64,000 nucleotides of DNA from a virus (taxonomy: Duplodnaviria; Caudoviricetes), in the IMG/VR virus record IMGVR_UViG_3300028738_000008. One strand, written 5' to 3'. The position numbers and the translations under genes are program-made. The notes below the pieces were generated by a model. It saw only the letters and a list, made by a program, of their open reading frames with translations. It did not search any database and had not been told where the DNA came from. Each line of letters begins with the position of its first letter. The stretch's first letter is position 1. This document shows positions 37,984 through 38,186 of the stretch, one piece after another.

Positions 37984-38130
37984 ATGAAAAGGAACATATC
38001 ATCAGCAACCATATCGGGAATTACATCGGGATCAATATCTCGCAATAGTAATGGTATGTCAAGATGTAATTTCATTTTTACAGGTATTAATACAGGCATA
38101 CAAAAAATAGATTGGGTTCTCTTAATGTGA
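37984..38130 (+). CDS. Leader peptide 4 (MKRNISSATISGITSGSISRNSNGMSRCNFIFTGINTGIQKIDWVLLM)
   Basis: 39 of 48 residues are S/I/G/T/N/R/M/F/C. Confidence 0.85.
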   Translation: MKRNISSATISGITSGSISRNSNGMSRCNFIFTGINTGIQKIDWVLLM

Positions 38131-38152
38131 GAATTTTAAAACCTTAAACAGG

Positions 38153-38186
38153 AAACCCGATCTACAGCAAATAGATCGGGTTTTTT
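38153..38186 (+). terminator. Attenuator terminator 4
   Basis: aaacccgatcta-cagcaaa-tagatcgggttt plus T-tract. Confidence 0.9.

What the first reader, a model, noticed from the sequence alone, without database searches (positions are those of the whole stretch)
37984..38186. Attenuator 4: nine-amino-acid sensor with an 11-bp antiterminator
Residues 3-39 contain only one amino acid (Ala) outside the downstream tRNA set. tagattgggtt (38108-38118) forms 11 contiguous pairs (one G-U) with aacccgatcta (38154-38164), nearly the whole terminator 5' arm. This is the strongest structural evidence for attenuation. Four ATA codons occur before the antiterminator, matching the unusual tRNA-Ile(TAT).
Basis: partly seen in the sequence, partly recalled or inferred. 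Interest (0 to 1): 0.88.

Follow-up and report, generated by a model that had tools for sequence, protein, structure and literature searches.

The report
Leader-peptide switch gating phage tRNA genes
A 48-codon mini-gene written almost entirely in the nine amino acids whose tRNA genes lie just downstream, followed by a switchable transcription stop, probably lets this uncultured peat phage make those tRNAs only when ribosomes read these codons slowly; I found no published description of such control for tRNA genes.

Summary
ORF 37984-38130 has 36 of 37 core residues (3-39) inside {C,I,F,G,M,N,T,R,S}, the amino acids of the tRNA genes that follow. That is P=3e-10, and it is the only such stretch among 26,334 six-frame windows.

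TAGATTGGGTT (38108-38118) pairs over 11 bp with the 5' arm of a strong terminator (38153-38183). None of 5000 shuffles reached 11.

Comparative evidence supports the attenuator reading:
- A close relative changes 10 leader residues and has two in-frame indels, yet keeps the composition.
- Three more distant phage lineages carry homologous leaders before Cys/Ile/Ser/Phe/Gly/Asn/Thr/Arg clusters. Their antiterminator strands co-vary with their terminators.
- A 425-kb phage partitions its tRNAs differently, and its leaders change accordingly.
- Over 29 units the leader-to-tRNA-set match beats all 5000 permutations.

New here: a 17-mer between terminator and first tRNA is identical to one in Bacteroidota 16S-23S spacers. 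It is probably an rRNA-type boxA, which implies that transcription arrives from upstream.

Caveats:
- The seven TCN serine codons have no decoder in this window.
- No classical anti-antiterminator was found.
- There is no solid RNA evidence.
- The operon's end is unknown.

This scan has noted the same design on other DNA (at least 60 genomes). Five literature searches found no description.

The parts
37849..37879 (+). Promoter of Bacteroidota type: -33 TTTG (37849-37852), 19-nt spacer, -7 box TACTTTTG (37872-37879)
   Evidence: The strict pattern TTTG-N17-21-TAnnTTTG hits only 4 times on the + strand of the 64-kb window, and 3 of those hits precede leaders 1, 2 and 4. ATTACYTTTG occurs 5 times against 0.68 expected. 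The box is invariant in G001. The consensus TTTG/TANNTTTG (TAHHTTTG) is taken from PMC6847099.
37895..37939 (+). 14-codon upstream mini-ORF (MRRRDFILILLKLL). Its stop overlaps (ATGA) an in-frame upstream ATG at 37936. Role unknown.
   Evidence: It is conserved in G001 (MKRRDFILTLLKLL). It is absent from the shorter 5' leaders of L064, L074 and L088.
37984..38130 (+). Leader ORF, 48 codons plus TGA. The start at 37984 is preferred over the in-frame ATG at 37936.
   Evidence: A stands at -3, -6, -12 and -13, all four positive determinants of Bacteroidetes initiation (PMC6847099); 37936 has U at -3. The ATG at 37984 aligns with the start of the homologous leaders. Two 3-nt indels against G001 keep the frame.
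37990..38100 (+). Sensor codons 3-39: 36 of 37 encode C, I, F, G, M, N, T, R or S
   Evidence: P = 3.3e-10. At codon level, 29 of 37 are readable by cluster-4 tRNAs against a background of 0.45 (P = 3e-5). Against the last nine codons (2 of 9 in the set), Fisher P = 5e-6.
38108..38123 (+). Antiterminator 5' strand (codons 42-47). 38108-38118 pairs with 38154-38164, and 38120-38123 pairs with 38150-38153.
   Evidence: The antiterminator fold is -17.5 kcal/mol and is the minimum-energy fold while the terminator 3' arm is not yet made. The strand co-varies with the terminator arm in L074 and L088.
38114..38136 (+). Small local hairpin (8 bp, -6.3 kcal/mol) that holds the stop codon and overlaps the 3' half of the antiterminator strand. 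Possible pause hairpin or weak anti-antiterminator.
   Evidence: The function is inferred only.
38153..38186 (+). Intrinsic terminator: 12-bp stem (38153-38164 / 38172-38183), 7-nt loop, six U (38181-38186)
   Evidence: -15.9 to -18.4 kcal/mol. In G001 the only change within the terminator is one base in the loop.
38190..38228 (+). Hairpin (38190-38209) followed by the 17-mer TCTTTGACATGTTGGAA (38212-38228): probable rRNA-type boxB/boxA antitermination signal
   Evidence: The exact 17-mer occurs in 93 IMG/VR stretches, and in 55 of 80 fetched loci a tRNA starts 18-30 nt after it. It occurs more than 120 times in cellular genomes, mostly Bacteroidota. In 5 of 10 loci checked it lies in the 16S-23S spacer, 36-101 nt before 23S. 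It shares 11 of 17 bases with the E. coli rrn boxA-spacer.
38238..43591 (+). Regulated tRNA array with small ORFs in between: Cys GCA, Ile GAT-like (38343-38418), Phe GAA, Gly GCC, Gly TCC, three CAT tRNAs, Ile TAT, Asn GTT, Thr TGT (weak, 42337-42409), Thr AGT, Arg TCT-like (43143-43218), Arg ACG
   Evidence: No strong + strand terminator was found between 38186 and about 47 kb.
46945..47036 (+). tRNA-Ser(GCT), the only Ser tRNA of the window. It is needed for the 'nine amino acids' count but lies 3.3 kb beyond tRNA-Arg, behind protein genes.
   Evidence: Whether it belongs to the same transcript is not known.

Best explanation
This is a ribosome-mediated (leader-peptide) transcription attenuator placed in front of a phage tRNA gene array.

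Host RNA polymerase starts at a Bacteroidota-type promoter (37849-37879) and transcribes a 48-codon leader. Codons 3-39 of that leader are almost all codons for Cys, Ile, Phe, Gly, Met, Asn, Thr, Arg and Ser.

If these codons are decoded quickly, the ribosome runs to the stop codon at 38128. There it covers or sterically blocks the antiterminator strand (38108-38123). The terminator (38153-38186) then forms and the transcript ends.

If decoding of any of these codons is slow, because the cognate tRNA is scarce, cleaved or uncharged, the ribosome stalls upstream. The free antiterminator strand pairs with the terminator's 5' arm before the 3' arm is made, and the polymerase reads on.

The polymerase then meets a hairpin plus a boxA-like signal of the host's rRNA operons (38190-38228). 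This probably makes it termination-resistant through the untranslated tRNA array.

The products are the tRNAs for exactly those amino acids, so the loop closes on itself. It is one of four such cassettes in the window, and together they partition all 20 amino acids.

Shown: the sequence anatomy, its statistics, its conservation and its co-variation. Inferred: translation of the leader, the stall-to-readthrough logic, the boxA function, and the physiological signal.
For: Anatomy and statistics:
- Composition: 36 of 37 core residues in the set, P = 3e-10, unique among 26,334 six-frame windows.
- Codon level: 29 of 37, P = 3e-5, and each of the four leaders is enriched only for its own cluster.
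- Antiterminator: 11 bp, 0 of 5000 shuffles. Its fold is -17.5 kcal/mol against -15.9 to -18.4 for the terminator, and it is the minimum-energy fold before the 3' arm exists.
- The last nine codons, which carry the antiterminator, leave the set (2 of 9; Fisher P = 5e-6). This is expected if only stalls upstream of that strand should induce.
- The start context has all four Bacteroidetes determinants, and the promoter is shared with the other three cassettes.

Evolution:
- G001 (92% DNA identity here) has 10 residue changes and two in-frame 3-nt indels in the core, yet 35 of 37 residues are still in the set. Its antiterminator strand and both terminator arms are invariant; one loop base differs.
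- Homologous leaders occur in three further lineages (L064, L074, L088) before Cys/Asn/Ile/Ser/Phe/Gly/Thr/Arg clusters. Their lineage-specific antiterminators track their terminators: GATACGGGTTCT with AGAACCCGTATC, and GTGTCGGG with CCCGACAC.
- The 425-kb phage G005 groups its tRNAs differently and its leaders follow. KRM-rich precedes Met/Lys/Arg. TSYHAGRCPV-rich precedes Tyr/Thr/Pro/Ala/Ser/Cys/His/Gly/Val/Arg (27 of 30, P = 3e-6). LLQQLQLLQL precedes Gln/Leu.
- Over 29 units the mean z is 4.0 and 0 of 5000 permutations reach it.

The boxA-like 17-mer downstream of the terminator has to be transcribed from upstream to act.

Units 1 and 3 of the window have no room for another promoter between terminator and first tRNA: 9 nt in unit 1 and about 15 nt in unit 3.
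Against: - No direct evidence of translation or regulation exists. The only RNA-library trace is one 151-nt metatranscriptome contig over 37936-38060 at depth 3, which could be DNA carry-over.
- Seven of eight Ser codons are TCN, for which the window holds no tRNA. The only Ser tRNA reads AGY and lies 8.8 kb downstream.
- No upstream segment that would sequester the antiterminator in the absence of translation was found. There is only a weak local hairpin (-6.3 kcal/mol), so an untranslated leader should read through as well.
- In L064, L074 and L088 the antiterminator ends 13-21 nt before the stop codon. A terminating ribosome would then hinder it sterically rather than cover it.
- The full-length minimum-energy fold is the terminator, so the switch depends on kinetics that cannot be computed here.
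- The in-frame ATG at 37936 would add Lys, Leu and His codons if it were used.
- A promoter overlapping the terminator's T-tract cannot be excluded for this unit.
Confidence: 0.8

Rival explanations
1. The architecture is the same, but the signal sensed is amino-acid starvation (uncharged tRNA) of the host rather than tRNA supply. The useful output would be something other than the tRNAs, for example the small ORFs embedded in the array.
For: The match is better at the amino-acid level (36 of 37) than at the codon level (29 of 37). The TCN Ser codons have no phage decoder here. Classical attenuators sense charging. Protein genes are interspersed in the array.
Against: Extra tRNA does not help starvation. 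In relatives the TCN decoders are present in the cluster: Ser TGA in L064, L074 and L088, and Ser AGA in G001. The mismatch therefore looks like a recent loss. The embedded ORFs are not conserved between relatives: the HNH gene is absent in G001, and the ASCH-like ORF has no relatives in IMG/VR. The tRNA sets and leaders, by contrast, co-vary.
Confidence: 0.12
2. The ORF encodes an ordinary small protein, or is not translated. The hairpin is just the terminator of a short early transcript, and the tRNAs are made from a separate promoter downstream of it.
For: A TTG-N18-TTTCTTTG arrangement overlapping 38188-38216 loosely resembles a Bacteroidota promoter. No RNA data exist. The ORF has no protein homologues.
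Against: The residues change fast while the composition stays tied to the tRNA set, across phages with different sets. The antiterminator co-varies with the terminator. The conserved part of the downstream motif extends 3' of TTTG, lacks the invariant TA of the -7 box, and matches the rrn spacer element. Units 1 and 3 have no space for a promoter.
Confidence: 0.05
3. It is a translation-independent RNA switch. The leader RNA, or a protein bound to it, senses tRNAs or another ligand directly, in the manner of T-box, PyrR or TRAP.
For: A terminator/antiterminator alternative alone is common to these systems.
Against: No Rfam family matched even at E = 5, apart from tRNA and a terminator look-alike. 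In-frame indels, an open frame in all relatives, a strong start context and composition-level rather than sequence-level conservation all point to decoding by ribosomes.
Confidence: 0.03

Closest known systems
Leader-peptide transcription attenuators of enterobacterial amino-acid operons, especially the multivalent ones (thrL: Thr+Ile; ilvL/ivbL: Ile, Leu, Val) and hisL, trpL, leuL, pheL
   Same: A promoter-proximal short ORF is rich in control codons. An intrinsic terminator follows. A mutually exclusive antiterminator uses the terminator's 5' arm. Ribosome position decides which structure forms, and a stall gives readthrough.
   Different: The regulated genes are tRNAs, not enzymes, so the product relieves the stall directly. 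Nine amino acids are sensed over 37 codons. The antiterminator strand lies inside the last codons of the ORF, not after the stop codon. No 1:2-type anti-antiterminator was found. The element is in a phage, in a Bacteroidota setting without Shine-Dalgarno sequences. No Rfam leader family matches.
pheST attenuator (pheM leader) of E. coli (from general knowledge, not tested here)
   Same: A leader-peptide attenuator controls a component of the translation apparatus that serves the sensed amino acid.
   Different: It controls a synthetase for one amino acid, not the tRNAs, and it is cellular.
T-box riboswitches
   Same: A terminator/antiterminator decision reports the state of a specific tRNA and controls genes of the aminoacylation pathway.
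   Different: T-boxes bind uncharged tRNA directly and need no translation. No T-box or specifier features are present here.
rrn operon antitermination signal (boxB-boxA-boxC; NusB/NusE) and lambda nut
   Same: A hairpin plus UCUUUGACA-type motif follows the attenuator. The identical 17-mer lies in Bacteroidota 16S-23S spacers before 23S. The E. coli rrn boxA-spacer is ugcucuuuaacaauuua (PMC2724277).
   Different: Here it heads a phage tRNA array and is placed after a conditional terminator. Binding of Nus factors was not tested.
Phage tRNA clusters in general (large phages carrying many tRNAs)
   Same: A large tRNA complement sits in an early region of a big phage.
   Different: I found no report that such clusters are gated by codon-matched leader peptides.

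Membership tests
Ribosome-mediated (leader-peptide) transcription attenuator | Short ORF with a usable start close behind a promoter | tested here: met
   Promoter at 37849-37879. ATG at 37984 with A at -3, -6, -12 and -13. The frame is kept by two 3-nt indels against G001.
Ribosome-mediated (leader-peptide) transcription attenuator | Control codons for the amino acids served by the regulated genes | tested here: met
   36 of 37 residues (P = 3e-10) and 29 of 37 codons (P = 3e-5). The leader is not enriched for the other three clusters. Family-wide permutation gave 0 of 5000.
Ribosome-mediated (leader-peptide) transcription attenuator | Intrinsic terminator between the leader ORF and the regulated genes | tested here: met
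   12-bp G+C-rich stem plus six U at 38153-38186, with the first tRNA at 38238.
Ribosome-mediated (leader-peptide) transcription attenuator | Antiterminator that excludes the terminator and is conserved by co-variation | tested here: met
   11 bp (15 with extension), 0 of 5000 shuffles. Lineage-specific complementary changes in L074 and L088.
Ribosome-mediated (leader-peptide) transcription attenuator | A ribosome at the stop codon blocks the antiterminator, and a ribosome stalled at control codons leaves it free | tested here: inconclusive
   In this window the strand ends 9 nt before the stop, so about 6 of its 11 nt fall under a terminating ribosome. In L064, L074 and L088 the distance is 13-21 nt, so only steric hindrance is possible.
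Ribosome-mediated (leader-peptide) transcription attenuator | Anti-antiterminator or pause hairpin (1:2) giving termination without translation | tested here: inconclusive
   Only a local 8-bp hairpin was found (38114-38136, -6.3 kcal/mol). The long hairpin inside the coding part is not conserved in G001.
Ribosome-mediated (leader-peptide) transcription attenuator | Readthrough rises when decoding of the control codons is slowed | not testable with these tools
   Needs a reporter or in vitro coupled system.
Curated Rfam leader families (Trp_leader, His_leader, Leu_leader, Thr_leader and others) | Match to the family covariance model | tested here: not met
   No hit at gathering score in the window, nor at E up to 5 in 37800-38450.
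T-box riboswitch | Match to the T-box model (specifier loop, T-box sequence) | tested here: not met
   No Rfam hit.
rrn-type boxA antitermination signal (for 38190-38228) | Sequence like boxA, and the same element in rRNA operons of the host phylum | tested here: met
   11 of 17 bases shared with the E. coli rrn boxA-spacer. The identical 17-mer lies in the 16S-23S spacer of 5 Bacteroidota genomes.
rrn-type boxA antitermination signal (for 38190-38228) | Binds NusB/NusE and makes the polymerase termination-resistant | not testable with these tools
   Biochemical.

The most novel reading that the evidence does not exclude
Large Bacteroidota phages may carry a self-correcting tRNA supply system. 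Several cassettes, four in this window, partition all 20 amino acids. Each cassette measures, through a translated 'checklist' peptide, how fast its own codon set is being decoded. Only when decoding is slow does it let the polymerase through, and it then hands the polymerase to a borrowed rRNA-type boxA antitermination signal to transcribe the matching tRNA array. This would let the phage answer host tRNA shortage, codon-usage mismatch or tRNA-cleaving defences tRNA set by tRNA set, without any protein regulator.
Probability: 0.6. Interest if true: 0.9.

Novelty: new variant of a known kind. Interest (0 to 1): 0.82.

Why it matters
Why phages carry tRNAs, and how they control them, is an open question. 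A codon-matched attenuator would show that phage tRNA genes are not simply constitutive. They would be induced on demand by the very defect they repair: slow decoding.

That makes a direct, testable link to host tRNA depletion and to tRNA-targeting defence systems.

It also extends classical attenuation in three ways:
- to RNA products;
- to nine amino acids sensed at once;
- to a phylum without Shine-Dalgarno-led translation.

Finally, it gives a simple rule for annotation: the leader composition predicts the transcription unit of the tRNAs behind it. The boxA-like signal behind the terminator suggests that these phages also recruit the host's rRNA antitermination machinery.

Tried and rejected
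- Close phage relatives in GenBank phages: none. Only the tRNA-like element and the HNH gene matched.
- Relatives found through the upstream Tad3-like gene: 11 loci, none with tRNAs nearby, so useless for the leader.
- Relatives through the ASCH-like ORF inside the array: none.
- Relatives through the YqeY-like ORF: 18 loci, but only G001 has a leader-4 homologue.
- The leader peptide as a query in IMG/VR found only G001. In the 5.8-billion-protein collection it found nothing.
- No whole genome is held for the window.
- RNA evidence: one metatranscriptome run with a single low-depth contig over the leader. It is too weak to count as expression.
- The 17-mer as a promoter: rejected as the main reading. 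Its conserved part lies 3' of TTTG, the TA of the -7 box is missing, and the same 17-mer sits inside rRNA spacers.
- The long hairpin 38018-38075 as a conserved pause or 1:2 element: not kept in G001.
- ATA enrichment as a special match to tRNA-Ile(TAT): not significant.
- Contigs of the 66%-identity clade (G002-G004) end before their fourth cluster.

Full report
**Setting.** The window is AT-rich (34.5% G+C) phage-like DNA. It was assembled from peat metagenomes and is seen in many peat runs. No close relative exists among GenBank phages. It carries about 37 tRNA genes on the + strand in four groups:
- Pro/His/Gln;
- Asp/Glu/Val/Leu/Ala/Trp;
- Lys/Tyr, with a CTA suppressor tRNA further on;
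- Cys/Ile/Phe/Gly/Met/Asn/Thr/Arg, plus a distant Ser.

Each of the 20 amino acids appears in exactly one group.

**Check of the observation.** All statements of the finding hold at the given coordinates.
- The ORF runs 37984-38130 and reads MKRNISSATISGITSGSISRNSNGMSRCNFIFTGINTGIQKIDWVLLM.
- Residues 3-39 have only Ala8 outside the set {C,I,F,G,M,N,T,R,S}. That set makes up 50% of residues in the window's long ORFs, so the binomial P is 3.3e-10. Of 26,334 stop-free 37-residue windows in six frames, this is the only one that reaches 36.
- TAGATTGGGTT (38108-38118) pairs with AACCCGATCTA (38154-38164) over 11 bp with one G-U. No shuffle out of 5000 reached 11.
- The terminator has a 12-bp stem, a 7-nt loop and six U.
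- Four ATA codons precede the antiterminator and a fifth overlaps it. ATA is 36% of Ile codons in this phage anyway, so that detail carries no statistical weight.

**Anatomy around it.**
- Upstream lies a promoter of the Bacteroidota type (TTTG, 19 nt, TACTTTTG; 37849-37879). The strict pattern has four + strand hits in 64 kb, and three of them precede leaders 1, 2 and 4. Leader 3 has CTTG in place of TTTG. The consensus is taken from PMC6847099.
- The ATG at 37984 has A at -3, -6, -12 and -13. These are the four positive determinants of initiation in Flavobacterium, which lacks Shine-Dalgarno sequences (PMC6847099).
- The in-frame ATG at 37936 has U at -3, and it does not align with the start of the homologous leaders. 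I therefore take 37984 as the start. Use of 37936 cannot be excluded.
- Before the terminator's 3' arm is transcribed, the minimum-energy fold of 38095-38170 is the antiterminator. It has 11 bp plus a 4-bp extension (38120-38123 with 38150-38153) and scores -17.5 kcal/mol.
- The complete RNA prefers the terminator plus a small local hairpin at 38114-38136 (-6.3 kcal/mol) that holds the stop codon. The choice is therefore kinetic, as in classical attenuators.
- The antiterminator strand ends 9 nt before the stop codon, so a terminating ribosome would cover about half of it.
- The last nine codons, which carry this strand, leave the amino-acid set (2 of 9, against 36 of 37; Fisher P = 5e-6). This fits a design in which only stalls upstream of the strand should induce.

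**Codon level.** With standard wobble rules, 29 of the 37 core codons can be read by the tRNAs of this cluster. The background is 0.45 and P = 3e-5. Each of the four leaders is enriched only for its own cluster.

The misfits are Ala8 and seven TCN Ser codons. No tRNA in the window reads TCN, and the only Ser tRNA (GCT, 46945) reads AGY. It lies behind 3.3 kb of protein genes.

The close relative G001 carries tRNA-Ser(AGA) between two tRNA-Asn copies, where this phage has a single tRNA-Asn. The more distant relatives carry Ser(TGA) in the cluster. The mismatch is therefore best read as a recent deletion in this phage.

**Relatives.**

1. G001 (IMGVR_UViG_3300025140_000001) is 92% identical over this region. 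Differences concentrate in codons 3-32: 10 residue changes plus two 3-nt indels that keep the frame. Even so, 35 of 37 core residues remain in the set. The promoter, start context, antiterminator strand, both terminator arms and the segment up to tRNA-Cys are invariant; within the terminator only one loop base differs. This is selection on composition and RNA pairing, not on a protein sequence.

2. An exact search for a 17-mer that follows the terminator (see below) brought in 80 phage loci. Among them are three further lineages with homologous leaders:
   - L064: MKTYRHISAIITSTSSRNGISIFCSDFTGRNNGDDGGSGFLMR
   - L074: MKTYRKISEDSTSTSSRNGNGIFCSIFTGRNNADTGSGFKDIDL
   - L088: MMKTLTTNIFSSISTTTSRIGRTIFCSNFIGRNSNVSGILFS

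   Each is followed by a terminator and a Cys/Asn/Ile/Ser/Phe/Gly/.../Thr/Arg cluster.

3. Their antiterminator strands differ and match their own terminator arms:

   | Lineage | Antiterminator strand | Terminator 5' arm | Pairs |
   |---|---|---|---|
   | window | TAGATTGGGTT | AACCCGATCTA | 11 |
   | L074 | GATACGGGTTCT | AGAACCCGTATC | 12, perfect |
   | L088 | GTGTCGGG | CCCGACAC | 8 |
   | L064 | GGGTTCT | AGAACCC | 7 |

4. The 425-kb phage G005 shares only 46% identity in the anchor protein and groups its tRNAs differently. Its leaders follow:
   - MKTIITIKRRTIKRMMRKMIIFSNQV precedes Met/Lys/Arg.
   - MKTTSSTYHFASGRCSAGYPVAPTSDNPVTYVFE precedes Tyr/Thr/Pro/Ala/Ser/Cys/His/Gly/Val/Arg (27 of 30, P = 3e-6).
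   - MKNSVNILLQQLQLLQLRSCGRFCIM precedes Gln/Leu.

5. Over 29 distinct units the leader core matches its own tRNA set with mean z = 4.0. No permutation of sets among units, out of 5000, reaches this. The same holds with one unit per distinct set.

**A new element.** Between the terminator and tRNA-Cys lie a hairpin (38190-38209) and the 17-mer TCTTTGACATGTTGGAA (38212-38228).
- A near copy follows the terminator of unit 2 (22709), and another copy lies inside cluster 4 (39922).
- The exact 17-mer occurs in 93 IMG/VR stretches. In 55 of 80 fetched loci a tRNA begins 18-30 nt after it.
- It also occurs more than 120 times in cellular genomes, mostly Bacteroidota.
- In five of ten loci examined it sits in the 16S-23S spacer, between the spacer tRNAs and 23S rRNA.
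- It shares 11 of 17 bases, including UCUUU-R-ACA, with the E. coli rrn boxA-spacer ugcucuuuaacaauuua (PMC2724277).

I read it as the host phylum's rRNA-type boxA, at about 65% confidence. Three things follow from that reading.
- It points to a Bacteroidota host.
- It has to be transcribed to act, so polymerases must come from upstream, through the attenuator.
- The order 'conditional terminator first, antitermination signal second' is what a decision-then-commitment design needs.

In units 1 and 3 of the window the terminator is 9 and about 15 nt from the first tRNA. That leaves no room for a separate promoter.

**Mechanism proposed.**
- Shown: the parts, their statistics, their conservation and their co-variation.
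- Inferred: the ribosome translates the leader. Fast decoding brings it to the stop codon, where it blocks the antiterminator strand, and the terminator ends the transcript at 38186. Slow decoding of any of the nine amino acids' codons leaves the strand free, the antiterminator forms first, and the polymerase reads into the boxA-like signal and the tRNA array.
- The tRNAs made are those whose shortage causes the stall, which gives negative feedback without a protein regulator.
- Whether the natural trigger is a codon-usage gap between phage and host, host tRNA decay or cleavage during infection, or starvation cannot be told from sequence.

**Weak points.**
- There is no evidence of translation or of regulated readthrough. 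One metatranscriptome contig (151 nt, depth about 3) covers 37936-38060 with a G-to-A change at 38029. That change turns Gly16 into Arg, which is again within the set. DNA in the library cannot be excluded.
- No segment was found that would sequester the antiterminator when the leader is not translated.
- In three homologues the strand ends 13-21 nt before the stop codon.
- The extent of the unit is open. I found no strong + strand terminator between 38186 and about 47 kb.
- The array is interrupted by small ORFs and by an HNH endonuclease gene that G001 lacks.

**Comparison with known systems.** It works like the leader-peptide attenuators of amino-acid operons, most like the multivalent thr and ilv leaders. 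It is not a member of any curated RNA family: there were no Rfam hits at gathering score, nor at E up to 5. It is not a T-box. Its target (tRNA genes), the number of amino acids sensed, the placement of the antiterminator strand inside the ORF, and the coupling to a boxA-like signal set it apart.

**Novelty.** Five full-text searches found no description of leader-peptide control of tRNA genes in phages or cells. This scan has noted the same design before on other DNA: 69 notes in at least 60 genomes, several followed up with the same verdict, and one look-alike of this very stretch in another genome. The class is therefore not new to the scan, though it is apparently new to the literature. 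I rate it a new variant of a known kind.

**Verdict.** Confidence in the attenuator mechanism is 0.8. Interest is 0.82.

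Noticed in passing
window 38190-38228; also 22709-22724 and 39922-39938: A hairpin plus the 17-mer TCTTTGACATGTTGGAA lies between the attenuator terminator and the first tRNA. The 17-mer is identical to one in 93 IMG/VR stretches (mostly 18-30 nt before a tRNA cluster) and to one in Bacteroidota 16S-23S spacers before 23S. It is probably an rRNA-type boxA borrowed by phage tRNA arrays.
   Followed up: yes
window 38343-38418 and 43143-43218: Two tRNA-like genes (anticodons GAT and TCT) share an odd architecture, with no normal D-arm and the element TATCAC ... AGTGTAAT. ARAGORN misses both, and Rfam scores are 22.8 and 33.1 bits. 38340-38419 is 83-90% identical to unannotated stretches in Streptomyces phages and a crAss-like Kehishuvirus. 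G001 has normal tRNA-Ile(GAT) and tRNA-Arg(TCT) at these places.
   Followed up: partly
window 36801-37532: The gene just upstream of the cassette matches Pfam Tad3, a Type I Thoeris inhibitor (E = 4.7e-20). Eleven IMG/VR relatives at 74-80% identity have no tRNAs nearby.
   Followed up: partly
window 38551-39222: An HNH endonuclease with HTH motifs is inserted in the tRNA array next to the odd tRNA-Ile-like gene. It is absent at this place in G001. Its DNA resembles HNH genes of crAss-like and T4-like phages (69-76%).
   Followed up: partly
window 41209-41221, against G001 (L026/L037 region): This phage has one tRNA-Asn where G001 has Asn, Ser(AGA), Asn. A deletion between the two Asn copies would explain why the leader's seven TCN Ser codons have no decoder in the window.
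   Followed up: partly
window 37895-37939: A 14-codon mini-ORF (MRRRDFILILLKLL) lies in the unusually long 5' leader of cassette 4. Its stop overlaps (ATGA) an in-frame upstream ATG at 37936. It is conserved in G001 and absent from the shorter leaders of L064, L074 and L088.
   Followed up: no
window 38238-38323: tRNA-Cys(GCA) is 85-86 nt long, with a 14-nt insertion at the variable-arm position in the Rfam alignment. That is unusual for tRNA-Cys. It is conserved at 85% in G001.
   Followed up: no
window 29625-29770: The CTA (amber suppressor) tRNA stands apart from the Lys/Tyr cluster and has its own strong terminator (29625-29654) just upstream. No matching leader was examined.
   Followed up: no
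L056/L063/L124, L080, L066, L099 (IMG/VR loci): Other phages have 'pangram' leaders before very large clusters. For example, MTRHSIYNLQMNIWFAPVKEDTLPCFVV precedes 18 tRNAs of 17 amino acids, and MMRNTTYTTATTAPQQGAGQGRTAQPRG... precedes Gly/Ala/Gln/Pro/Thr/Arg (26 of 36 residues in the set, z = 6).
   Followed up: partly
L074 about 1445-1600; L088 and L123 about 2670-2845: In some relatives, one or two further tRNA-like sequences not called by ARAGORN are inserted between the attenuator terminator and the boxA-like 17-mer.
   Followed up: no
window 37936-38060 (RNA run X25): Within the 6 kb laid, the only near-identical hit in a soil metatranscriptome is a 151-nt contig over the leader. It carries G38029A (Gly16 to Arg, still in the set). 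This would fit an abundant terminated leader RNA, but it is too thin to count.
   Followed up: partly
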